Below are positions 22,480-37,798 of a DNA stretch of 64,000 nt, in pieces. How positions within the stretch are numbered: the first letter of the stretch is position 1; every line of letters starts with the position of its first letter. The position numbers and the translations under genes are program-made. This DNA comes from Shigella phage Sf18. Location of the stretch: the sequence record MF158044, one strand, 5' to 3'. The notes beneath the pieces were generated by a model that saw only the letters and a list, made by a program, of their open reading frames with translations, was not told the DNA's origin and made no database searches.

Positions 22480-22510
22480 AAAGCCCTGTACAGACGTATG
22501 GGGCTTTTTC
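22480..22510 (+). terminator. possible terminator/attenuator hairpin
   Basis: AAAGCCC-loop-GGGCTTT followed by T-run, downstream of the SSB gene; loop is long so efficiency uncertain. Confidence 0.3.
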
Positions 22511-22524
22511 GTATGGAGAGTACA

Positions 22525-23565
22525 ATGGAACAATACACCTTAACAAAGCTCCCAGAGAGCGTTACACACGTCTTTATTGACTCTGATAGCATTGCTTACA
22601 AAGGTGCTTGTGTAGTTGAAAAAGCAAAGTACAAGTATGTGAATAAAATCACTGCTGAAGAATCCGATGCTTTTGATAGTGCAAAACTGGCAGCACAATG
22701 GTTGTCTGACCAAAGAGTTTTAACTGAAGAGTTAGGACTTGACTTTGATGAAGATGAATGGGAAAGACAGACTTGGAAGGAGGCTAAGAGTGAAGCTGAA
22801 GCAATTATGGCTACACAGCAAGTTCTTCAGGAGTGGTTGAAAGTCGTTGGTAAAGAACGCAAATGGATGGGTTACCTTACTGAGAAAGGTGTTCACAAAC
22901 ACAAGGATATCAAAGGTCTTGAACACCAATATCAAGGTAACAGAAAAGAAGCTGTAACACCTACACACCTAGTTGCTTGTCGTGAGTATCTTCTGTCACG
23001 ACCAGAGTTTAAGCTCCTAAAGGGGGGCTTCGAAGCAGACTCTATCGTTATTGCAAAAGCTGAGAAGATGGGTAAAAAAGCTGCTCTGATGAGTATTGAT
23101 AAAGACCTTCGTCAAGCTGAAGGAACTTACTGTATTGATATGACTTATGAGAAAGCTCCATTAATTTTCATTGCAGATAATAACGTTGGTGAGATTTGGG
23201 ATTGCCCTATCAAATCTAAACCGAAAGCTAAGAAGACAGTCGGAGTAGGTTTTAAATTCCTCTGCTATCAAGTTGTAGCAGGTGATAATGCAGACAACTA
23301 CTTCGGTTTAAAAGGTGCTGGTAAGGTTGCGGTGATGAATGCACTGGAAGGTAAAACTACCTACAAAGAGTGCTTAGACGCAATCTATGAACTTTATGCT
23401 AAGAAAGAATCTTACACTTATGAATCGTGGGATGGTCAGATTGTGACAAGAACTCCACTAGAACTGATGGAGCAACACTTCTGGATTGCTTATCAAGAAC
23501 GAAATCCTAAAGATGATTTTACGTTTAAAAAATACAATTGGGAGCCAGTTATGAATGAAGATTAA
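22525..23565 (+). CDS. 5'-3' exonuclease / flap endonuclease
   Basis: Start at Met preceded by GGAGAG; acidic cluster FIDSDSIAY near N-terminus and H3TH-like segment GDNADNYFGLKGAGKVAV. Confidence 0.55.
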   Translation: MEQYTLTKLPESVTHVFIDSDSIAYKGACVVEKAKYKYVNKITAEESDAFDSAKLAAQWLSDQRVLTEELGLDFDEDEWERQTWKEAKSEAEAIMATQQVLQEWLKVVGKERKWMGYLTEKGVHKHKDIKGLEHQYQGNRKEAVTPTHLVACREYLLSRPEFKLLKGGFEADSIVIAKAEKMGKKAALMSIDKDLRQAEGTYCIDMTYEKAPLIFIADNNVGEIWDCPIKSKPKAKKTVGVGFKFLCYQVVAGDNADNYFGLKGAGKVAVMNALEGKTTYKECLDAIYELYAKKESYTYESWDGQIVTRTPLELMEQHFWIAYQERNPKDDFTFKKYNWEPVMNED

Positions 23566-24055
23566 AGGATTTGGAAATTGCCATGTTTATGGACATTGGA
23601 TTTCACTGTGCGGGGAAATTGACCCCGCTAACTATTTTGGTTTTGTCTATTTAGTATACTGTAAGAAAACTGGACAATATTATATTGGAAAGAAACAATT
23701 TAATAACGTCACTAAGAAAAAGGTTGCTGGAAAGACCAGACGTAAAGTCGTGACAAAAGAAAGTGATTGGATGACTTACCAAACATCTTCTGAGTACATT
23801 AAGAAGGATATTGAATCTTTTGGTGAAAAAGAGTTTGACTTCTACATCATCCAGACTTACTATACGCGAGGTGGCTTAGTTTATGGCGAAGCTAACCTAC
23901 AGCATAAGTTTGACGTCATGACAAAAAGGATTGACTCTAAGCTTCGACTCTTCTACAATGCGAACATTGCAGCAATCAAGTTTCTTACAAAAGAGACTTA
24001 TGATGAAGCTGAGAAGAGAATCACTAAAATCATGAAACTTAATGAGAGAGTTTAA
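23555..24055 (+). CDS. GIY-YIG homing endonuclease (Seg-like)
   Basis: 166 aa; GIY-YIG-like motif VYLVYCKKTGQYYIGKK, conserved Arg (GKTRRK) and Glu downstream. Confidence 0.5.
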   Translation: MKIKGFGNCHVYGHWISLCGEIDPANYFGFVYLVYCKKTGQYYIGKKQFNNVTKKKVAGKTRRKVVTKESDWMTYQTSSEYIKKDIESFGEKEFDFYIIQTYYTRGGLVYGEANLQHKFDVMTKRIDSKLRLFYNANIAAIKFLTKETYDEAEKRITKIMKLNERV

Positions 24056-24056
24056 A

Positions 24057-24272
24057 ATGTTTAATAAAATCAAAAATGACCATGTTTCTAAAATCCAGAG
24101 TGGCGTAGCAGCACTGAAGGAAACTATCAGCAAAGCTAAGTCAGCTACAGAAGCTGAGATGGATGCTCTGGAATCACAAATTCAACATCTGTTAAGCAAA
24201 CGTGTTGAACTCAAAGAACGAATGGACTATATCGAGTCTCAACAAAAGTTGTTTGAAGATAAGGAGGCTTAA
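24057..24272 (+). CDS. hypothetical coiled-coil protein
   Basis: Start moved to Met after GAGAG SD (MFNKIKN); 71 aa. Confidence 0.35.
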   Translation: MFNKIKNDHVSKIQSGVAALKETISKAKSATEAEMDALESQIQHLLSKRVELKERMDYIESQQKLFEDKEA

Positions 24273-25713: not shown

Positions 25714-27948
25714 ATGATTACTACTATTCGCAAATCAGACGGTACAATCGTACCATTCGAACCAGAACGTTTAAATAAATGGGCTTCATGGGCTGACAAG
25801 AGAGGAATTATCTGGTCAGAAGTTGTAATGGAAGCTATGAAGCGTGTCTATGAAGGTTGTACAACAAAAGAAATGCACCAAGCTATGATTGACGTTTGTA
25901 TTGATAAACAAACTCAAGAGTACTCTGATATGGCTGGGAGACTACTTCTTGGCATTATCTACAAAGAAGCTTTTGGTGGATTTACAAAGGTTCCTCAGTT
26001 ACTTCCATTTGTGATGAAGATGGAGCAGATGGGGCTTTGGGAACACATGGATTACACACCTGAAGAGATTGACTACTTACAAGGTCACATCGTACATTCG
26101 AAAGATATCTCTTATGGGTATGCAGTGCTGAAGCAGTTCCGTGATAAGTATGGAATCCGTGACATTAAAAGTGGTAAGCTGTTTGAGTCTCCACAGTTTA
26201 TGTTCATGGGTATGGCTATGAAAGCCTTTGAAAGACAGCCTAAACAGCGTCGTTTAGATGATGTTATTAAGCTCTACACATATCTATCTGACCTGAAGAT
26301 TAATGCCCCTACACCGTATCTGAATGGTCTGAGAGCTACAAAATCTGGCTACGCTTCATGCTGCCTAATTAAAGCAAATGATACTGCTGAATCTCTTGGC
26401 ATTGCTACAAAAGTAGCTTATGACATGACAACTAAGCAAGCAGGTATTGGTATGCTGATGGAGACCAGAACAATTGGTGATGGAATCCGACAAAACACTA
26501 TTGAGCATATGGGAAAACTCCCTTATTATAAGCTTGTACGTGCTGCTGTAGAGGCTAATAAGCAGAAGAGTCGTGGTGGTTCAGCTAATAACTTCTTCAC
26601 TGCATTAGACCCACAGATTGAGGATTTGCTACGCTTGAAGCACCCTACAACGGTTCCTGCAAAGCGTATTAATGAAATGGATTACTCATTTGGTGCAAAT
26701 GATTACTTCTGGCAATGTGTACAGTACGATACAGATTGGTTGCTATTCTCTTACAAAGATGCACCAAGACTGTATGATATGTTCTACACAGCAAGTGCTG
26801 ATGAATTTGCTATGGCAGTAGGTCACGCAGTTCATACAGGTGTTAAACATAAACGTGTAAAGGCTCGTGAAGTTGCCAAGTTGTTTATCCAGCAACGTTA
26901 TGCTACAGGGCGTATTTACCCGTTCTTTACTAACAACGCAAACTATCATACACCTTTCAAAGAACCTTTGAAAATGTCAAACCTGTGTATGGAGATTGTC
27001 TTACCAGTTCACGGTTTTGAGGATGAAAGAGACCTGTATAGCTACACAGCCAAGAAAGAAGACGGTGAAGTTGCTCTTTGCTTCTTAGCTAGTTTGGTTG
27101 CAGGGAGAATCACAGAAGATGAATACGCTGACGTTGCTTATTATGCTCTTGCAATGGTTGACTCCGTTATTGACCTTATGGATTATCCGTATCCGTCAAT
27201 GCGTAACCATGTTCAGAAACGTCGTTCTGTTGGTATTGGTCTTACTAATGTGGCTCATTACCTTGCGAAGAACTATGTGAATTACTCATCAAGGGCTGGT
27301 AAAACTAAACTTCATGAGTTGGCTGAGATGCACTCTTACTTCTTGCATGAAGCATCTTTAAGACTCGCAAAAGAGCGTGGTGTACCAGAGTACATGCAGT
27401 TTACTAAGTACCCTGACGGTTGGGTTCCACCAAAGACTGCTAACAAGAAAATTGATGAAAAGCACGATGCAAAACTTCGTTATGATTGGGATGACCTGTC
27501 ACATCGAATTAAAGAAAATGGTGGTATTCGTAACTCTGTGTTAGAGGCTTACATGCCTAATGAGAGTTCTTCTCTGGCAACTAACACGACAAACGGCCTG
27601 TACCCTATTCGTGACTTCATCTTAACTAAGAAGTCTGCAACTGGTAACGTTCTGTTTATTGTACCTGACTATGAAGAGTTGAAGTATGTATATGAAATTG
27701 CTTGGGATATTGACACATTTGATATGATTGATTGCTATGCAATTGTTCAAAAATTCACTGGTCAAGCTATCTCTTCAGATTTCTATGTTGACTACTCGAA
27801 GTCTAAGAAGGTATCATTAGAGCAAGCTTTGAAGTACATGATTTATGCAAACCTTGTTGGTTTGAAAACTATGTACTACCTTAACAGTCGTATCGGTGTT
27901 GGTAAATCAGCACTACAAGATGCCTACTGTGAGGGTTGCGGCGTTTAG
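25714..27948 (+). CDS. nrdA: ribonucleotide reductase class Ia large subunit
   Basis: 744 aa; N-terminal ATP-cone-like region, active-site Cys blocks (NLCMEI), C-terminal redox Cys pair (CEGCGV). Confidence 0.9.
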   Translation: MITTIRKSDGTIVPFEPERLNKWASWADKRGIIWSEVVMEAMKRVYEGCTTKEMHQAMIDVCIDKQTQEYSDMAGRLLLGIIYKEAFGGFTKVPQLLPFVMKMEQMGLWEHMDYTPEEIDYLQGHIVHSKDISYGYAVLKQFRDKYGIRDIKSGKLFESPQFMFMGMAMKAFERQPKQRRLDDVIKLYTYLSDLKINAPTPYLNGLRATKSGYASCCLIKANDTAESLGIATKVAYDMTTKQAGIGMLMETRTIGDGIRQNTIEHMGKLPYYKLVRAAVEANKQKSRGGSANNFFTALDPQIEDLLRLKHPTTVPAKRINEMDYSFGANDYFWQCVQYDTDWLLFSYKDAPRLYDMFYTASADEFAMAVGHAVHTGVKHKRVKAREVAKLFIQQRYATGRIYPFFTNNANYHTPFKEPLKMSNLCMEIVLPVHGFEDERDLYSYTAKKEDGEVALCFLASLVAGRITEDEYADVAYYALAMVDSVIDLMDYPYPSMRNHVQKRRSVGIGLTNVAHYLAKNYVNYSSRAGKTKLHELAEMHSYFLHEASLRLAKERGVPEYMQFTKYPDGWVPPKTANKKIDEKHDAKLRYDWDDLSHRIKENGGIRNSVLEAYMPNESSSLATNTTNGLYPIRDFILTKKSATGNVLFIVPDYEELKYVYEIAWDIDTFDMIDCYAIVQKFTGQAISSDFYVDYSKSKKVSLEQALKYMIYANLVGLKTMYYLNSRIGVGKSALQDAYCEGCGV

Positions 27949-28003
27949 TTTGAATAACTATGAGGGTCGTAAAAGACCCTCTAAAATTAACTTGGAGAAA
28001 GGT

Positions 28004-28279
28004 ATGCTAGATTTAATTCGCAATGCGAGAATACGTAGCAAAGATAACTCACTATATTTATTTTATATTCCAAGACGGTCTTTGTATTATATTGCAGACT
28101 TAGACTTAAAAGTTAAGATGCCAGATGGTTCTTGGAAAGAACATATACGATATATTGATTGTTTTAATCCAAAGCAAACATATGCAAGACCACTTGATAT
28201 GTTCAACAAGGACAAATGGGTTGTTATGACAACAACTGAAGCCAGAAACTTTCTAGATACAGGAATCTTACCAGAATGA
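28004..28279 (+). CDS. hypothetical protein inserted between nrdA and nrdB
   Basis: Start at Met with GGAGAAAGG SD; 91 aa; position matches the nrdA-nrdB gap occupied by mobE in T4. Confidence 0.35.
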   Translation: MLDLIRNARIRSKDNSLYLFYIPRRSLYYIADLDLKVKMPDGSWKEHIRYIDCFNPKQTYARPLDMFNKDKWVVMTTTEARNFLDTGILPE

Positions 28280-29349
28280 TTAACCCACATCCAATTTTCT
28301 TAGGCGGTGAACGAAAAACTTTCGATTCACTGAATAAACACTATCCAAAAATCTTTGAACTGTATAAGCAGCAGAAAGCACAAGACTGGTCTGAAGATGA
28401 GTTCCCATTTGAACAGTCACGTTTAGACTTTGAGAGTGTCCCTCAGTCAATGTCTGGTGTAATGCTTGAGATTCTGAAATGGCAATGGGAAGCAGATACA
28501 CAGGTTGCTAAGAGTTTAGCTTTTGCCTTTGCACCATTCATCTCTGATGATATCTATGCAACTGCTATCATGAAGCAATCAGAAATTGAGAACCTTCATG
28601 CACTAACTTATTCAGAGATTGTTCGTCAGTGTATCAAGAACCCTGAAACAATCCTTGATGAGATTAACCAGAATGCTGCTGTTCAGGACAGATTGAAGAC
28701 TGTGAACAGAGCACTGGCAGAATTACTTGACGAAGGTATTAACTATCGTTTAAGCTATGTTCGTCAAGAGTTAATGGAGAAAGACCCTTTACACTTCCAC
28801 AAAGTAATCTTGAAAGGTCTCTTTGCAGTAACAGCACTTGAGGGTATTTCCTTCATGGCATCCTTTGCATGTACCTTTGCACTTGATGCACAAGATAAAT
28901 TCCAAGGGATTGCACAAGCAGTACAGAAAATTATGCTTGACGAAATCATTCACACAAAGATTGATATCGAAGCATTAAAAGAAACTTTGAAAGATGAAGA
29001 GTGGCAAGAAGCTTTCCGTCAAGTACTCCCAGAAATTAAAGTAATTCTGGATGAAGTAGTTGAAAGTGAAGAGAAATGGTCTTATTATATCTTCTCTGAA
29101 GGACGTGCTGTTGTAGGTTTGAATACAAAACTTCTTCACGAATGGGTTTACTACAACGCTGCTCCATTGTATGATATGTTTGGTATTCCAAGAGACTTTG
29201 TAGCTCCTAAAGAACCACCTTTGAAATATATGATTAAGAAGATGGAAATTGATAAAGAGCAAAACGCTAACCAAGAACAACAAAATGGTGCGTACCTTTT
29301 GAATACTGTTGTTGATGATTTAAATTCAGGATTTTTAGAGGTTCCTTAA
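28276..29349 (+). CDS. nrdB: ribonucleotide reductase class Ia small subunit
   Basis: 357 aa; ferritin-like fold with E/H di-iron ligand blocks (EIENLHALTYSEI; LDEIIHTK). Confidence 0.85.
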   Translation: MINPHPIFLGGERKTFDSLNKHYPKIFELYKQQKAQDWSEDEFPFEQSRLDFESVPQSMSGVMLEILKWQWEADTQVAKSLAFAFAPFISDDIYATAIMKQSEIENLHALTYSEIVRQCIKNPETILDEINQNAAVQDRLKTVNRALAELLDEGINYRLSYVRQELMEKDPLHFHKVILKGLFAVTALEGISFMASFACTFALDAQDKFQGIAQAVQKIMLDEIIHTKIDIEALKETLKDEEWQEAFRQVLPEIKVILDEVVESEEKWSYYIFSEGRAVVGLNTKLLHEWVYYNAAPLYDMFGIPRDFVAPKEPPLKYMIKKMEIDKEQNANQEQQNGAYLLNTVVDDLNSGFLEVP

Positions 29350-29833: not shown

Positions 29834-31978
29834 ATGGTTAAAGTACAAATTATTAAGAAAGACGGTTCACTGGAAAACCCAAATGTAAATAAAATCGTCG
29901 AAGCAGTTACCAAGTCAGCTAATAGAGTTGGCTACAAAGAGTTACCACTAGAAGTTATCCATGCTCTTGAATCAGCCTTTATGAGACTGCTTGTCAGAGC
30001 AACTAATCAGAATGCTATGCTCATCTCTGTAGATGATGTTCACAGTATTGTGGAAGGAACTCTGGCAGAGGTAAACCATGAAATCTATGAGTCATATTCA
30101 ACCTACAGAAACTATCGTAAAGAGGTTGCACAGAATTGGGATGAACTTTACCAGAAAACTAAAGACACACTCTTCTTAGGTGACCGTGAGAATGCTAACT
30201 TTGATAGTAGCTTAATCTCTACAAAAGGTTCAATCATCCGTGGGTATCTGACAAAAGAAATCTTTAAGCAGTATCACTTGACACCAGAAGAAGCAAGTGC
30301 TATTGAAGATGGTTTCATTTATATCCATGACTTAAGAGATTTAATCTTCGGTGGTATTAACTGTTGCTTGTTTGACATTGGAAGCGTCTTGAAAGGTGGT
30401 TTTGAAATGTCCGGCATTGAATACTGCGAACCAAAGTCTGTACTTTCAGCTTTACAGGTTATTGGTGACGTTGTACTCTCAGCAACTGCACAGCAATTTG
30501 GTGGATTTACTATCCCAGAGATTGACAAGGTTCTTGTGCCATATGCTAAGAAGTCTTTTGAGTATCATCTGGAGAAAGCAAAGCAGTATAATATCACAGG
30601 GAGAGGTGGTGCATACCACTATGCTAAAGAGCAACTCCAGATTGAACTGACCCAAGGTTTCCAATCTCTGGAAATGAAGCTAAACACTGTCCCTTGCAGC
30701 CGTGGTGACTTTGCATTTACAACATTAACATTTGGTTTACTTGAACCAGATATGGCTAGTGAAGACAACCGATTGCAATTTATGATTGCGAAGACTATTC
30801 TTGATGTGAGAATGAATGGTCAAGGTAAGTCTAAGAAGCCTGTTGTATTCCCTAAACTGGTTTACATTTATGATGAGACAAGACATATGCTAGACCCTTG
30901 GCAGGGAACTCTTTATGACAAAGCTATTGAGTGCTGTTCTAAAGCTATGTACCCAGACTTCTTAAGTGTTTCTGGTCATGGTTCTGTTGCAGAAGCTTTT
31001 GAGCGTTCAGGTGCAGTCATCTCTCCAATGGGTTGCAGAGCTTTCTTATCACCATATTATGATGAAGATGGTAAAGAGTTCTACACAGGGCGAGCAAACA
31101 TTGGTGCAGTATCTCTTAATCTGCCAATGATTTACAAGTATTCTGAAGAGAATTGTTTAGACTTCTGGACAGAACTTGACAAGTATCTTGAGATGATTAG
31201 AAGCTTCCATAAAAAACGTTATGAGATGATTGCTAATATGCCAGCAAGCTCTAACCCTCTAGCATTCACACAAGGTGGTTTGTATAAAGGTCATAAGAAG
31301 CCAACTGACAAGATTGGTTGGGATACTGTGAAATCTTTTACAGCCTCTTTTGGTGTCACTGCATTGGATGAGTTAACAGTACTTGCACAAGGTAAAAGAT
31401 TACATGAGTCAGACGGTGATATTGCAAGTAAGGTTTTAAACTACCTGAATGGCAAACTGGAGCAGTTTAAACAGGAAGATGGTTTCTTGTATGCCCTCTA
31501 TGGTACACCTGCTGAGAGCCTTTGTGGTACGCAATTGAAGCAGTTTAGAAACATGTTTGGAGTTGTTAAAGGTGTATCTGATAAAGAATACTTTACAAAC
31601 AGCTTCCACATGAATGTTGGTGCAGATATTACACCATTTGAAAAGCAAGACTTAGAAGAACCTTTCTTCCATGCTTGTAATGGTGGTCATATCCAGTACG
31701 TTCGTATTGCTAATCCAGAGAATCATAAAGCTATTAGGGCTTGTGTGACAAGAGGTATGGGTAAAGGTTTCTATCAAGGTGTTAACTTTGACTTGGCAAT
31801 CTGTGAGAATTGTGGTCACCGTCCAAGTGCAGATGTTGAATTGTGTCCTAAGTGCAACTCACACGATATCTCTGTGATTAACCGTGTTTGTGGTTATCTT
31901 GGCTGGACTAAGATTAAAGGTACTTCCAGAATGAATGATGCAAAAATTGCTGAAATTCAGGATAGAAAATCTATGTAA
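29834..31978 (+). CDS. nrdD: anaerobic ribonucleoside-triphosphate reductase (class III)
   Basis: Start at Met with GGAG SD (MVKVQIIKKDG); C-terminal Cys4 cluster (CENCGH...CPKCN) and glycyl-radical motif RVCGYLG. Confidence 0.9.
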   Translation: MVKVQIIKKDGSLENPNVNKIVEAVTKSANRVGYKELPLEVIHALESAFMRLLVRATNQNAMLISVDDVHSIVEGTLAEVNHEIYESYSTYRNYRKEVAQNWDELYQKTKDTLFLGDRENANFDSSLISTKGSIIRGYLTKEIFKQYHLTPEEASAIEDGFIYIHDLRDLIFGGINCCLFDIGSVLKGGFEMSGIEYCEPKSVLSALQVIGDVVLSATAQQFGGFTIPEIDKVLVPYAKKSFEYHLEKAKQYNITGRGGAYHYAKEQLQIELTQGFQSLEMKLNTVPCSRGDFAFTTLTFGLLEPDMASEDNRLQFMIAKTILDVRMNGQGKSKKPVVFPKLVYIYDETRHMLDPWQGTLYDKAIECCSKAMYPDFLSVSGHGSVAEAFERSGAVISPMGCRAFLSPYYDEDGKEFYTGRANIGAVSLNLPMIYKYSEENCLDFWTELDKYLEMIRSFHKKRYEMIANMPASSNPLAFTQGGLYKGHKKPTDKIGWDTVKSFTASFGVTALDELTVLAQGKRLHESDGDIASKVLNYLNGKLEQFKQEDGFLYALYGTPAESLCGTQLKQFRNMFGVVKGVSDKEYFTNSFHMNVGADITPFEKQDLEEPFFHACNGGHIQYVRIANPENHKAIRACVTRGMGKGFYQGVNFDLAICENCGHRPSADVELCPKCNSHDISVINRVCGYLGWTKIKGTSRMNDAKIAEIQDRKSM

Positions 31979-33854: not shown

Positions 33855-34166
33855 ATGGAAAAGATTTATAACACTCGTAAAATTCAGATTTCTATCCTGT
33901 GCCAGTTTATGGCTGATAAACACAACTCCCACTATTGTGGTACAGGTTTCCTTACTCTAGGTGGTGGCTACATTAGCTTCAAAGAAGCTGTGAAGATATA
34001 TAATGAGCACCCTGAAGATGATAAAGAGTTAAAACAACTGAAGCTTACTTATGACAAGAAGCGTAAGAAAATCATTTGTTTAAACAACCTTATCAAGCCA
34101 ACTGAAAACGTTTATGATGCAATTGGTGAAGAAGGTTTCTTAAAAGTCTTGAAAATAGCTCAGTAA
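33855..34166 (+). CDS. hypothetical protein
   Basis: 103-aa ORF with SD AAGGA. Confidence 0.4.
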   Translation: MEKIYNTRKIQISILCQFMADKHNSHYCGTGFLTLGGGYISFKEAVKIYNEHPEDDKELKQLKLTYDKKRKKIICLNNLIKPTENVYDAIGEEGFLKVLKIAQ

Positions 34167-34218
34167 ACGTATATGATTAGGGAACTGTAAAAGGTTCCCT
34201 TTTTATTTTGGAGAAATC

Positions 34219-34734
34219 ATGTACCATTCAAATCTGAAACGTGCTGCTGCAATGTCTGTTCTTCGTCTTGATTTTGATGAGCGTCAAGAGTTCATCGAGT
34301 CACATCAGTATGACCCCTCAAATTCTAATCACATGGTGCTTTGGAACCGTGGTAAGTTCCGTGATAGTGCCTTGTTCCAGTACTACCCTCATTACACTAT
34401 TGACAACCTCTATGAATACTGCGTTGTCAAGAACACTATTGCAACCCTTAATAAGCTTTGTAGATATTCTGGAAAGAAAGCTTTCACATTAGGCCACCAT
34501 AAGCCCGTGACAAAAGGTGGAGAGCACCATTGCTCTAACTGGTTTATCCAGACTCAAGAGGATAACCAGAAGCAGGGAGAGAAGCTTCCAGAAGCCCCTA
34601 AGATGACTTGGGAAGAACAGAAAGCATATCTTAAAAATAATATGCCACCAATGCTTGACAGAGAATACGCATTTCTGGCAATATCACTCTTGTTGAAGCT
34701 TGAGACAGTTTATGAGGCAACTTATCATGGCTAG
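34219..34734 (+). CDS. HNH endonuclease
   Basis: 171 aa; HNH signature GHHKPVTKGGEHHCSNWFIQTQEDNQKQ (HH...GG...N...N..K). Confidence 0.55.
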   Translation: MYHSNLKRAAAMSVLRLDFDERQEFIESHQYDPSNSNHMVLWNRGKFRDSALFQYYPHYTIDNLYEYCVVKNTIATLNKLCRYSGKKAFTLGHHKPVTKGGEHHCSNWFIQTQEDNQKQGEKLPEAPKMTWEEQKAYLKNNMPPMLDREYAFLAISLLLKLETVYEATYHG

Positions 34735-35005
34735 AGAACAATGGGATATCAAAGAGCTTATTAGCGAAGCTGGAAATGGTAGTGAGATGTATATGATACG
34801 TGGTCACGTCCCAGATGCACTTGCTATTGAGATGATAGACCACTACTCCAACGGATTCTATAAAGAGTTTGGAGAGCCAAATATTGAACGTACTTGGACA
34901 AAACCAGTACCAGACGGAACAGGAAACTGTTCAGTTATCTACCACATTGTAGACCCAAAGAAATGTAAATCAGCTATGGCTGTAACATTTGTAACTTTTG
35001 ACTGA
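34727..35005 (+). CDS. hypothetical protein
   Basis: Start moved to Met (MAREQW) with GAGGC SD. Confidence 0.3.
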   Translation: MAREQWDIKELISEAGNGSEMYMIRGHVPDALAIEMIDHYSNGFYKEFGEPNIERTWTKPVPDGTGNCSVIYHIVDPKKCKSAMAVTFVTFD

Positions 35006-35017
35006 GAGAGAGATATT

Positions 35018-35899: not shown

Positions 35900-35943
35900 C
35901 AACTTTAGGGGCTGAAAAGCCCCACTTTGAGAGAGATAAAAAG

Positions 35944-37761: not shown

Positions 37762-37775
37762 AACAGTATGATAAG

Positions 37776-37798
37776 AGGCTCCTACGGGAGCCTTTTTA
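37776..37798 (+). terminator. intrinsic terminator
   Basis: AGGCTCC-TACG-GGAGCCT hairpin followed by TTTTT. Confidence 0.55.

What the first reader, a model, noticed from the sequence alone, without database searches (positions are those of the whole stretch)
23555..24055. Free-standing GIY-YIG and HNH endonuclease genes, plus a small ORF in the nrdA-nrdB gap
A GIY-YIG (Seg-like) ORF sits between the flap endonuclease and downstream genes, and an HNH ORF (34219-34734) sits between small ORFs upstream of the Prs/NadV pair. The nrdA-nrdB junction contains an extra 91-aa ORF (28004-28279) at the position occupied by the mobE homing endonuclease in T4; it has no nuclease motif and may be a remnant. 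Such elements mark insertion hot spots and drive marker exclusion in mixed infections.
Basis: partly seen in the sequence, partly recalled or inferred. Interest (0 to 1): 0.35.

Follow-up and report, generated by a model that had tools for sequence, protein, structure and literature searches.

The report
Resident phage nucleases, not homing genes
The three small genes are real, but in this FelixO1-like phage they are conserved resident genes, not mobile homing endonucleases; the truly mobile HNH genes of this phage group are absent here, and two of their known insertion sites are empty.

Summary
The window is a Mooglevirus (Ounavirinae, FelixO1-like), about 99% identical to Shigella phages Sf13/Sf15. 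All three ORFs exist at the stated coordinates.

**ORF 23555-24055** has a clear SegE-type GIY-YIG domain (Pfam 1.2e-27). It lacks the DNA-binding tail of Seg homing enzymes. All 299 related phage records matching the junction probe carry it, next to the exonuclease gene. It diverges at the neighbours' rate (dN/dS about 0.05).

**The mobile element at that junction** is a ~490-bp HNH-AP2 gene, found in about 40% of sampled FelixO1-type relatives. The window has the empty site. The prs|nadV junction is also empty.

**The "HNH" ORF 34219-34734** has no Pfam hit and only weak HNH signals. It is the ortholog of Bas63 gene 77, which a preprint reports as a counter to retron Ec67.

**The 91-aa nrdA-nrdB ORF** is an intact, fast-evolving small protein with a predicted beta-barrel. 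It is not a mobE remnant.

The homing interpretation is largely unsupported. Interest is modest.

The parts
22498..23565 (+). 5'-3' exonuclease / flap-endonuclease-like gene. Its last 11 nt overlap the start of the GIY-YIG ORF.
   Evidence: ORF; phrog_107 exonuclease 1.3e-63; annotated exodeoxyribonuclease in relatives.
23540..23544 (+). GGGAG Shine-Dalgarno-like sequence for the GIY-YIG ORF, inside the exonuclease coding region, 10 nt before the ATG.
   Evidence: Read from the sequence in the alignment. The same overlap arrangement appears in SUSP2, phiEa21-4 and Wc4 annotations.
23539..23557 (.). Empty insertion site. In relatives a ~490-bp HNH_3+AP2 homing-endonuclease gene sits exactly here, replacing the last codons of the exonuclease gene and overlapping the GIY-YIG start.
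   Evidence: Alignment with Sf14, Moogle and wV8; annotations; 22 of 60 evenly sampled relatives are occupied; Pfam HNH_3 + AP2 for the Sf14 insert.
23555..24055 (+). Domain-only SegE-type GIY-YIG nuclease gene (166 aa). It is a core, vertically inherited Ounavirinae gene. The domain spans residues 22-138, with a 28-residue helical tail and no DNA-binding module.
   Evidence: Pfam PF19835 1.2e-27; invariant Y32, Y43, K47, W72, Y75, E112, N135; present in 299/299 related records; identity tracks the exonuclease; dN/dS 0.046-0.060.
24042..24272 (+). 76-aa coiled-coil-like ORF overlapping the GIY-YIG stop by 14 nt. It belongs to the same tightly packed operon. It evolves fast, and no homolog was detected in phiEa21-4 or Wc4, where a small annotated ORF occupies the same slot.
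   Evidence: phrog_4442; identities 96/74/43% and no hit in phiEa21-4/Wc4.
27962..27981 (+). Conserved GC hairpin (GAGGGTC-GTAAAA-GACCCTC) just after the nrdA stop codon.
   Evidence: Identical in Moogle, wV8 and Bas63. SUSP2 has a different but still self-complementary sequence. phiEa21-4 has a different hairpin followed by a T-run.
28004..28279 (+). 91-aa ORF between nrdA and nrdB. GGAG lies 7 nt upstream of the ATG, and the stop overlaps the nrdB ATG (ATGA). It is a hypervariable small protein with a predicted SH3/Tudor-like beta-barrel and no nuclease motif.
34179..34200 (+). Terminator-like hairpin plus T-run. It marks the upstream edge of the transcription unit HNH-like ORF / 92-aa ORF / prs / nadV.
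   Evidence: a terminator is annotated at the same place in Moogle. A second terminator-like site follows nadV at 37773-37796.
34219..34734 (+). 171-aa ORF with a divergent HNH/HNN-like beta-beta-alpha motif (H93, N107, D115, N116 invariant). It is the ortholog of Bas63 bas63_0077, which a preprint reports to counter retron Ec67.
   Evidence: No Pfam hit; phrog_3500 5e-93 and weak HNH PHROGs; IscB HNH region 7e-4; alignment; AF2 model; 76.6% identity and synteny with bas63_0077; PMC11482910.
34727..35005 (+). 92-aa ORF overlapping the previous ORF by 8 nt (Bas63 bas63_0078 ortholog). In relatives it is lost or replaced together with the HNH-like ORF, so the two form a cassette.
   Evidence: Both are absent in vB_Si_35FD and replaced by a methyltransferase in SP4 SHa-2019.
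35900..35943 (.). prs-nadV spacer with GC hairpin GGGGCTGAAAAGCCCC (35908-35923). This is a second empty site, where Moogle, phiSUSP1 and about a quarter of sampled relatives carry an HNH_3+AP2 gene.
   Evidence: Alignment; annotation; 11 of 46 sampled FelixO1-type relatives are occupied; Pfam HNH_3 1e-17 for the Moogle insert.

Best explanation
The window comes from a Mooglevirus (FelixO1-like myophage).

**ORF 23555-24055.** It encodes a resident nuclease made of a SegE-type GIY-YIG catalytic domain alone. Close relatives of this domain include Seg-like homing endonucleases that carry NUMOD3 or HTH DNA-binding tails. In Ounavirinae the tail-less form is fixed and translationally coupled to the 5'-3' exonuclease gene. 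It is kept under strong purifying selection as part of the replication and nucleotide-metabolism operon. Up to here the points are shown.

Inferred: it cuts or nicks DNA, or another nucleic acid, with little sequence specificity. The cuts would create entry points for the neighbouring exonuclease. The likely targets are host DNA for nucleotide salvage, or foreign or defence nucleic acids. This would resemble T7 gp3 with gp6, or T4 endonuclease II. It does not propagate itself by homing.

**The mobile elements.** The truly mobile elements of this phage group are ~490-bp HNH_3+AP2 genes. They insert into the exo|GIY overlap and the prs|nadV spacer. The window carries the empty allele at both sites.

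**ORF 34219-34734.** It is a divergent HNH-like protein. Together with a 92-aa partner it forms a cassette at the head of the prs-nadV (NAD+ reconstitution) operon. Its Bas63 ortholog is reported to counter retron Ec67, so it is best read as an anti-defence gene.

**The 91-aa ORF in the nrdA-nrdB gap.** It is an intact, fast-evolving small protein with a predicted beta-barrel, whose alleles are swapped by recombination. It is not a nuclease remnant.
For: **Identity of the phage:**

**GIY-YIG domain.**
- Pfam PF19835, 1.2e-27.
- GIY/YIG tyrosines, E112 and N135 are invariant across 20 diverse members.
- There are no residues for a DNA-binding domain. All 10 long relatives scanned carry PF19835 plus at least 100 C-terminal residues; 8 of the 10 show NUMOD3 there, one an HTH, one nothing.
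- Short and long forms are interspersed on a tree, and the nearest long neighbours of the window protein carry C-terminal extensions of 110-167 residues.

**Not mobile.**
- 299 records match across the exo/GIY junction, with no deletion allele in an even sample of 60.
- 297 records hold the protein at >=60% identity.
- Identity to the window tracks the exonuclease: 97/95, 94/92, 86/88, 63/53 and 53/52%.
- dN/dS is 0.046-0.060, against 0.04-0.07 for the exonuclease.
- The start/stop overlap with the exonuclease gene is conserved in SUSP2, phiEa21-4 and Wc4.

**HNH-AP2 polymorphism:**. None is present in the window.

**HNH-like ORF.**
- Orthology with bas63_0077.
- The preprint's gene numbers match locus tags for g65, g79/80 and g84/85.
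- The knockout plates 10-fold worse on an Ec67 host and is complemented (PMC11482910).
- The slot holds alternative cargo or is empty in a few relatives.
- dN/dS is 0.05-0.11.

**orf91:**
Against: - No biochemical or genetic data exist for the GIY-YIG protein, so the proposed substrate and the cooperation with the exonuclease are inferences from context only.
- In cyanomyoviruses the homologous short protein (T4-GC 213) is not next to an exonuclease.
- No sequence similarity to T4 endonuclease II was detectable.
- The canonical GIY-YIG arginine is not obviously present in this subfamily. K47 is invariant instead, so activity is assumed, not shown.
- The preprint describes 'gene 77' as containing a GIY-YIG domain. 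That fits bas63_0057 (the ortholog of 23555-24055), not bas63_0077. One of its gene numbers (g74 = reductase activator) is off by one from the locus tags. Which of the two ORFs is the Ec67 counter is therefore not fully certain.
- The orf91 model rests on a 4-sequence alignment, and only one of the five models was confident.
Confidence: 0.62

Rival explanations
1. The GIY-YIG ORF is an active free-standing Seg-like homing endonuclease that has gone to fixation in Ounavirinae. It still cuts related phages that lack it, causing marker exclusion.
For: The catalytic domain belongs to the SegE family, and the nearest long relatives are NUMOD3-bearing Seg-like enzymes. Catalytic-type residues are intact. 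The gene lies between conserved genes, as T4 seg genes do. GenBank records label it 'GIY-YIG homing endonuclease'.
Against: No empty-site allele exists among 299 relatives. There is no DNA-binding module. Divergence equals that of the flanking core gene down to 52% identity, and dN/dS is about 0.05. That is the opposite of the decay expected for a fixed selfish endonuclease. There is one copy per genome.
Confidence: 0.1
2. The GIY-YIG protein itself is the anti-retron factor. The Bas63 'gene 77 with a GIY-YIG catalytic domain' that counters retron Ec67 would really be the ortholog of 23555-24055, and it would degrade msDNA or its precursor.
For: The preprint's domain description fits only bas63_0057 in Bas63 (Pfam 9.4e-28), not bas63_0077. 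The authors annotated hypothetical genes from BLASTp labels, and orthologs of bas63_0057 are labelled GIY-YIG in GenBank. One other gene number in the text is off by one. A tail-less nuclease with a basic loop could act on ssDNA/RNA hybrids.
Against: The text uses 'gp77' or 'gene 77' five times. Numbers g65, g79, g80, g84 and g85 match the locus tags exactly. bas63_0077 sits directly upstream of the other validated counter-defence genes g79/g80, in a slot with alternative anti-restriction cargo. The GIY-YIG gene is universal and embedded in the replication operon, which is unusual for a 10-fold accessory counter-defence factor.
Confidence: 0.2
3. The 91-aa ORF is a decayed remnant of a homing endonuclease such as MobE, left in the nrdA-nrdB gap.
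For: It occupies the same intergenic position as mobE in T4. The gap is a sharp recombination and divergence island between otherwise near-identical phages. The nrdA|nrdB junction is empty in phiEa21-4.
Against: The ORF is intact in all 323 records with a hit. dN/dS is 0.17-0.25. The start and the ATGA overlap with nrdB are conserved. The predicted fold is a small beta-barrel, not beta-beta-alpha-Me. There is no similarity to T4 NrdB.1, and none of the profile libraries scanned gives any nuclease family hit. Homologs exist outside nrd contexts, in phiEa21-4 gene 109 and Vibrio phage qdvp001.
Confidence: 0.05

Closest known systems
T4 Seg proteins (SegA-G), free-standing GIY-YIG homing endonucleases; Pfam PF19835 SegE_GIY-YIG
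   Same: The catalytic domain family is the same (97 bits). The GIY and YIG tyrosines, Glu and Asn are conserved. The gene is a phage-encoded ORF located between conserved genes.
   Different: There is no C-terminal NUMOD3/HTH DNA-binding region. The gene is not patchy: all relatives have it at one position. It evolves like a core gene. Homing has not been shown and is unlikely.
T4 endonuclease II (DenA), a domain-only GIY-YIG nuclease that starts host DNA breakdown; encoded next to nrdB in T4
   Same: It is a small single-domain GIY-YIG-type protein encoded among nucleotide-metabolism genes. It is a fixed resident gene, not a mobile one. The function proposed here (nicking DNA for exonucleolytic degradation) is modelled on it, from my own knowledge of T4 biology.
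   Different: No detectable sequence relationship (hhalign probability 0.07). Substrate discrimination in T4 relies on modified phage DNA, and no equivalent is known here.
ICP1 Odn and other domesticated homing-endonuclease-derived nucleases (Barth et al., PMC10055350)
   Same: A nuclease domain of homing-endonuclease ancestry is kept by a lytic phage for its own benefit rather than for homing.
   Different: Odn keeps a DNA-binding domain (RepA_N) that gives it a defined target. The protein here has none. Odn uses a different GIY-YIG subfamily (T5orf172).
HNH_3+AP2 free-standing homing endonucleases of FelixO1-like phages (six copies reported in FelixO1, PMC3185647)
   Different: They are absent from this window. 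They are unrelated to ORF 34219-34734 (hhalign probability 0.1).
Bas63 (Felixounavirus JohannRWettstein) gene 77, a counter of retron Ec67 (PhageMaP preprint, PMC11482910)
   Same: ORF 34219-34734 is 76.6% identical over its full length. It sits in the same position, two genes upstream of prs.
   Different: The function has not been tested in a Mooglevirus. The preprint calls the domain GIY-YIG, whereas profile searches here find none and point weakly to HNH.

Membership tests
Free-standing GIY-YIG homing endonuclease (Seg-like) | GIY-YIG catalytic domain with conserved catalytic residues | tested here: met
   PF19835 1.2e-27. Y32, Y43, E112 and N135 are invariant in 20 diverse members.
Free-standing GIY-YIG homing endonuclease (Seg-like) | Separate DNA-binding module (NUMOD/HTH/zinc finger) giving site specificity | tested here: not met
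   Only 28 residues follow the domain, and no Pfam hit exists there. Long relatives carry C-terminal extensions of at least 100 residues; 9 of the 10 scanned show NUMOD3 or HTH in them.
Free-standing GIY-YIG homing endonuclease (Seg-like) | Patchy presence among close relatives, with endonuclease-free alleles of the same junction | tested here: not met
   299 of 299 matching records span exo plus GIY, and the sample of 60 has no deletion allele. Identity tracks the exonuclease.
Free-standing GIY-YIG homing endonuclease (Seg-like) | Cleaves the endonuclease-free allele and is copied into it in mixed infection | not testable with these tools
   This needs in vitro cleavage and co-infection crosses.
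T4 endonuclease II (DenA) family | Sequence or profile similarity to DenA | tested here: not met
   hhalign of the family alignment against T4 DenA gives probability 0.07. PDB sequence searches gave no GIY-YIG hit.
HNH homing endonuclease (for ORF 34219-34734) | HNH / beta-beta-alpha-Me catalytic motif recognised by a curated profile | tested here: inconclusive
HNH homing endonuclease (for ORF 34219-34734) | DNA-binding module and patchy, multi-copy distribution | tested here: not met
   No AP2/NUMOD/HTH module. One copy per genome, present in most relatives, with identity tracking prs. Rare losses remove a two-gene cassette or replace it with a methylase.
Bas63 gp77-type anti-retron factor | Orthology (sequence and synteny) with bas63_0077 | tested here: met
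   76.6% identity over 171 aa, with the same neighbours.
Bas63 gp77-type anti-retron factor | Relieves retron Ec67 defence | not testable with these tools
   Reported only for Bas63 in a preprint. The gene identity carries a naming ambiguity.
MobE-type HNH endonuclease remnant (for the 91-aa ORF) | Residual similarity to an HNH endonuclease, or signs of decay | tested here: not met
   No nuclease hits. The predicted fold is a beta-barrel. The ORF is intact in 323 records. dN/dS is 0.17-0.25.

The most novel reading that the evidence does not exclude
Tail-less SegE-type GIY-YIG proteins may be a widespread domesticated nuclease family. Members would include the universal Ounavirinae gene next to the exonuclease and the T4-GC 213 gene found in about 400 cyanomyovirus records. 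Today these carry the labels 'homing endonuclease' or 'NAD synthetase'. The family would supply a function not yet assigned in these phages: starting host-chromosome breakdown, or destroying defence nucleic acids such as retron msDNA, in partnership with a 5'-3' exonuclease.
Probability: 0.3. Interest if true: 0.5.

Novelty: new member of a known kind. Interest (0 to 1): 0.27.

Why it matters
**Annotation.** Hundreds of phage records label this gene either 'GIY-YIG homing endonuclease' or 'NAD synthetase'. The first label implies mobility that the data contradict. The second has no support at all.

**Domesticated homing-endonuclease domains.** Recognising a fixed, tail-less Seg-type nuclease as a core gene adds an example of a homing-endonuclease domain kept for the phage's own use. 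It also gives a concrete candidate for host-DNA breakdown or counter-defence in FelixO1-like phages, which are used for Salmonella typing and biocontrol.

**Where the real mobile elements insert.** The analysis pinpoints the two junctions used by the HNH-AP2 genes. It shows that this phage carries the sensitive (empty) alleles. This matters for predicting marker exclusion in mixed infections and in phage cocktails.

**Link to an experiment.** ORF 34219-34734 is tied to an experimentally supported anti-retron gene located beside the NAD+-reconstitution genes.

Tried and rejected
- **PDB sequence searches.** Searches with the GIY-YIG protein and with its family profile found no solved relative.
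- **hhalign of the family.** Comparisons against single T4 sequences (DenA, SegG, I-TevI) were uninformative or negative.
- **First protein search.** The word-indexed search returned only 9 close relatives. The exhaustive HMMER search was needed.
- **hhalign of the HNH-like family against the subfamily's HNH-AP2 genes.** Negative.
- **Profile search of the HNH-like family against PDB.** It gave only a curious match of residues 11-53 to protein A B-domain repeats, which I treat as chance.
- **orf91 as a homolog of T4 NrdB.1.** NrdB.1 occupies the same slot just upstream of nrdB, but the comparison was negative.
- **A longer 119-aa version of orf91.** Some gene callers predict it. I rejected it because the 'conserved' upstream residues coincide with a conserved DNA hairpin and a ribosome-binding site.
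- **orf91 as an RNR accessory factor.** It is absent in Wc4, which lacks nrdAB. However, its homologs in phiEa21-4 and Vibrio phage qdvp001 are not next to nrd genes.
- **Two other phage-essentiality preprints.** Neither holds data on FelixO1-like phages. No supplementary tables of the PhageMaP preprint were available.
Full report
**What the window is.** A 3-kb stretch around the finding is 99% identical to Escherichia phage 3HA14 and Shigella phages Sf13, Sf15, Sf17 and Sf19. It is 91-95% identical to Citrobacter phages Moogle, Mordin and Michonne. These are Mooglevirus, subfamily Ounavirinae, the FelixO1-like myophages. The region from 21.6 to 37.8 kb is one rightward block of tightly packed genes. 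In order: a 286-aa protein, 5'-3' exonuclease, the GIY-YIG ORF, small ORFs, a MazG-like gene, nrdA, the 91-aa ORF, nrdB, glutaredoxin, nrdD, nrdG, small ORFs, the 'HNH' ORF, a 92-aa ORF, prs and nadV.

**Check of the observation.** All three ORFs are at the stated coordinates.
- The first ORF matches Pfam PF19835 (SegE_GIY-YIG) at E=1.2e-27, 97 bits against a cut-off of 25, over residues 22-138.
- The second has no Pfam match. It belongs to PHROG 3500 (unknown function, 5e-93). It gives only weak local matches to HNH PHROGs (2.4e-5, 5e-4) and to the HNH region of IscB (7e-4, far below cut-off).
- The 91-aa ORF belongs to PHROG 2652 (unknown) and has no nuclease signal.

**The GIY-YIG ORF is not presence/absence polymorphic.**
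- A sensitive DNA search with an 801-bp probe spanning the end of the exonuclease gene and the first 400 bp of the GIY-YIG ORF found 299 phage records. All are Ounavirinae-type, and 274 cover at least 80% of the probe. The rest are distant Erwinia, Hafnia and Yersinia phages whose DNA is too diverged.
- In an evenly spaced sample of 60 of these records, none lacks the GIY-YIG part.
- A protein search found the ORF at >=60% identity in 297 records, one copy each.
- In five fully compared relatives, its identity to the window protein follows that of the adjacent exonuclease: Moogle 97 vs 95%, SUSP2 94 vs 92%, wV8 86 vs 88%, phiEa21-4 63 vs 53%, Pectobacterium phage Wc4 53 vs 52%.
- Nei-Gojobori dN/dS against four relatives is 0.046-0.060. 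This is the same as the exonuclease (0.04-0.07) and nrdA (0.01-0.05), at synonymous divergences up to saturation.
- The ORF start lies inside the last codons of the exonuclease gene (11-nt overlap, with GGGAG 10 nt upstream). The same overlap is annotated in SUSP2, phiEa21-4 and Wc4, even though the downstream gene content differs in those phages.

That is what is found.

**Architecture of the GIY-YIG protein.**
- An exhaustive HMMER search found 1404 cluster representatives, 410 of them below 1e-10.
- Among the best 149, 62 end within 40 residues of the domain and 88 carry a longer C-terminal extension.
- Ten long members were scanned. All have PF19835. Eight show NUMOD3 in the extension, one has helix-turn-helix matches instead, and one has no recognised module. 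This is the classical architecture of Seg-type homing endonucleases.
- The window protein has only 28 residues after the domain and no such module.
- In a 20-sequence alignment of short and long members, these positions are invariant: W15, G29, F30, Y32 (GIY), Y43-I44-G45 (YIG), K47, W72, Y75, S78, E112 and N135. The catalytic-type residues are thus retained. The canonical arginine is not evident.
- Short and long forms are interspersed on a neighbour-joining tree, with at least 31 switches. Some short ones may be truncated metagenomic calls.
- The window protein groups first with other short proteins, then with long relatives carrying C-terminal extensions of 110-167 residues. The two of these that were scanned, P0013 and P0019, carry NUMOD3.
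- Short homologs at about 33% identity occur in roughly 400 cyanomyovirus records as gene cluster T4-GC 213. There they are not adjacent to an exonuclease.
- RefSeq names all of these 'NAD synthetase' after PHROG 447. Nothing supports that name.

**What is mobile at this junction.**
- In Sf14, Sf16, Moogle, wV8, FelixO1 and many others, a ~490-bp gene sits between the exonuclease and the GIY-YIG ORF, overlapping both.
- It encodes an HNH_3 domain (9.6e-12) followed by an AP2 domain.
- The alignment shows that it replaces the last seven or so codons of the exonuclease gene and ends on the GIY-YIG start codon. The window, SUSP2 and Bas63 have the uninterrupted version.
- In the even sample of 60 relatives, 22 are occupied. 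That is 22 of the 51 FelixO1/Moogle/Susp-type rows.
- A second such gene (HNH_3 1e-17, plus AP2) lies between prs and nadV in Moogle, phiSUSP1 and 11 of 46 sampled relatives. In the window that spacer is 44 nt and holds a GC hairpin.
- Further copies flank the DNA polymerase gene in SUSP2, Bas63 and phiEa21-4. One sits in an intron of nrdD in Bas63.
- tblastn with six such endonuclease proteins found nothing in the 64-kb window; a seventh query, the wV8 DUF7390 ORF that records label HNH, matched only its ortholog at 33855-34163.
- The FelixO1 genome paper already noted six HNH endonuclease copies (PMC3185647).

**The 'HNH' ORF, 34219-34734.**
- It is present in 428 records. These include nearly all FelixO1-type phages, Erwinia and Pectobacterium Ounavirinae (38-50% identity), and rV5-like phages (42-45%).
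- Identity tracks prs (97/89, 88/84, 78/76%), and dN/dS is 0.05-0.11.
- An alignment of ten homologs has invariant H93, G100, G101, H103, H104, N107, W108, D115 and N116.
- The AlphaFold2 model (pLDDT 72) places a beta-hairpin (89-93, 108-112) and a helix (113-119) there. That is the beta-beta-alpha topology of HNH/HNN nucleases.
- It is preceded by a terminator-like hairpin (34179-34200), also annotated in Moogle. It overlaps a 92-aa ORF by 8 nt and is followed by prs and nadV, then another terminator-like site. This looks like a four-gene unit.
- In a few relatives the two small genes are missing together (vB_Si_35FD, L27) or replaced by an adenine methyltransferase (SP4 SHa-2019). Such a pattern is typical of accessory counter-defence slots.

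**Link to Bas63.**
- The ORF is 76.6% identical to bas63_0077 of phage Bas63 (JohannRWettstein) and sits in the same position.
- The PhageMaP preprint reports that deleting Bas63 gene 77 lowers plating on a retron Ec67 host ten-fold and that a plasmid copy restores it. Genes 79 and 80 (prs, nadV) counter Sir2-HerA and other systems (PMC11482910).
- The preprint's gene numbers agree with the GenBank locus tags for genes 65, 79, 80, 84 and 85.
- One caveat remains. The authors say gene 77 has a GIY-YIG catalytic domain. By Pfam, bas63_0077 has none, and the only SegE_GIY-YIG gene of Bas63 is bas63_0057, the ortholog of the window's first ORF. Their 'gene 74' is also one off from the locus tags.
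- Whichever way this resolves, one of the two nuclease-like ORFs of this finding is the reported Ec67 counter. I give about two to one in favour of the HNH-like ORF.

**The 91-aa ORF.**
- The gap is laid out as follows: nrdA stop at 27948; a conserved GC hairpin at 27962-27981; GGAG; ATG at 28004; and a stop overlapping the nrdB ATG.
- Longer versions predicted by some gene callers owe their 'conserved' N-terminus to the hairpin and ribosome-binding site.
- The ORF is intact in 323 records but very divergent: 93% (Moogle), 69% (SUSP2) and 37% (wV8), against 99/96/92% for nrdA.
- Against Shigella phage SFPB, which is otherwise 98-100% identical over 6 kb, identity drops to 55-69% exactly across the ORF, with short shoulders in nrdA and nrdB. 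Alleles are therefore exchanged by recombination.
- dN/dS is 0.17-0.25.
- In phiEa21-4, nrdA and nrdB are adjacent and the homolog (gene 109) lies 3 kb away. In Wc4, which lacks nrdAB, no homolog was detected in the 28-kb stretch compared. A Vibrio phage homolog sits near a DNA polymerase gene.
- The AlphaFold2 model is a small beta-barrel with flanking helices. Its best pLDDT is 88.6, but it rests on only four sequences and the other models were poor.
- It shows no similarity to T4 NrdB.1, the small gene in the equivalent slot of T4.
- It is a functional, rapidly evolving small protein and not a nuclease remnant. What it binds is unknown.

**How the GIY-YIG gene most likely works.**
- Shown: it is an intact SegE-type nuclease domain without a targeting module. 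It is fixed, strongly constrained, and translationally coupled to a 5'-3' exonuclease inside the replication and nucleotide-metabolism operon.
- Inferred: it makes nicks or breaks with low sequence specificity, and the exonuclease enlarges them. The most economical role is breakdown of host DNA into nucleotides for the salvage enzymes encoded around it (dNMP kinase, reductases, MazG). T7 endonuclease I with exonuclease gp6, and T4 endonuclease II, do the same. T4 denA lies next to nrdB; the rest of this comparison is from my own knowledge.
- A role against defence nucleic acids (retron msDNA) is the main alternative. It would become the leading one if the preprint's gene 77 proves to be this gene.
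- A homing role is unlikely for the reasons given above.

**Novelty and score.** The sequences are already in GenBank, and one ORF has a published (preprint) phenotype. Three points appear to be new in the literature I could search:
- The GIY-YIG gene is a fixed, tail-less derivative of Seg-type enzymes and not a homing gene.
- Both database labels for it are misleading.
- The window carries empty alleles at two HNH-AP2 insertion sites.

This is a new member of known kinds: domain-only GIY-YIG nucleases and domesticated homing-endonuclease domains. Interest is modest.

Noticed in passing
window 23555-24055; L008 3887-4372; L009 3944-4381: RefSeq records, following PHROG 447, name this GIY-YIG family 'NAD synthetase'. 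This includes about 400 cyanomyovirus records (T4-GC 213). The only profile match is SegE_GIY-YIG, so the name looks like a propagated annotation error.
   Followed up: partly
window 27962-27981: A GC hairpin directly after the nrdA stop is identical in Moogle, wV8 and Bas63. SUSP2 has a different but still self-complementary sequence, and phiEa21-4 has another hairpin plus a T-run. Similar GC hairpins with A-rich loops sit in other spacers (35908-35923, 34179-34200). They may be intercistronic RNA stability or attenuation elements.
   Followed up: partly
window 28004-28303 versus L014: Against the otherwise 98-100% identical phage SFPB, identity falls to 55-69% only across the 91-aa ORF. A second mosaic patch of 77-91% lies inside nrdA (about 26600-27600). 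This indicates recent recombination with other lineages.
   Followed up: partly
window 34200-35017; L015, L016: The slot between the terminator at 34179-34200 and prs holds alternative cargo in relatives. Most have the HNH-like ORF plus the 92-aa ORF. Salmonella phage SP4 SHa-2019 has an adenine methyltransferase there. vB_Si_35FD and L27 have nothing.
   Followed up: partly
window 29837-31978; L011 20191-23077: In Bas63 the nrdD gene is split by an intervening sequence that carries an HNH_3+NUMOD1 ORF (bas63_0068). The window's nrdD is uninterrupted, so this is a third empty endonuclease site.
   Followed up: partly
window 33855-34166: This 103-aa ORF (Pfam DUF7390, 1.9e-16) is labelled 'putative HNH endonuclease' in FelixO1, wV8 and Sf15 records. 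It shows no HNH signal in Pfam or PHROGs.
   Followed up: partly
window 34219-34734, residues 11-53: The N-terminal helices (LRLDFDERQEFIESHQYDPSNSNHMVL) resemble the repeated B-domain motif of staphylococcal protein A ([27 protein letters not shown]). Each single repeat matches weakly, so this is probably chance.
   Followed up: no
window 23610-23628: A 6-bp GC hairpin (GCGGGG-AAATTGA-CCCCGC) lies 55 nt into the GIY-YIG ORF, close to the HNH-AP2 insertion point. wV8 has a paired C-G to T-A change in it, and Sf14 does not keep it. Whether it is a recognition element for the AP2-domain endonuclease is unknown.
   Followed up: no
PMC11482910 versus L011: The PhageMaP preprint describes Bas63 gene 77 as GIY-YIG and gene 74 as the reductase activator. 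By locus tag, bas63_0077 has no GIY-YIG domain, and NrdG is bas63_0073. The identity of the reported Ec67 counter should be checked against the preprint's donor table.
   Followed up: partly
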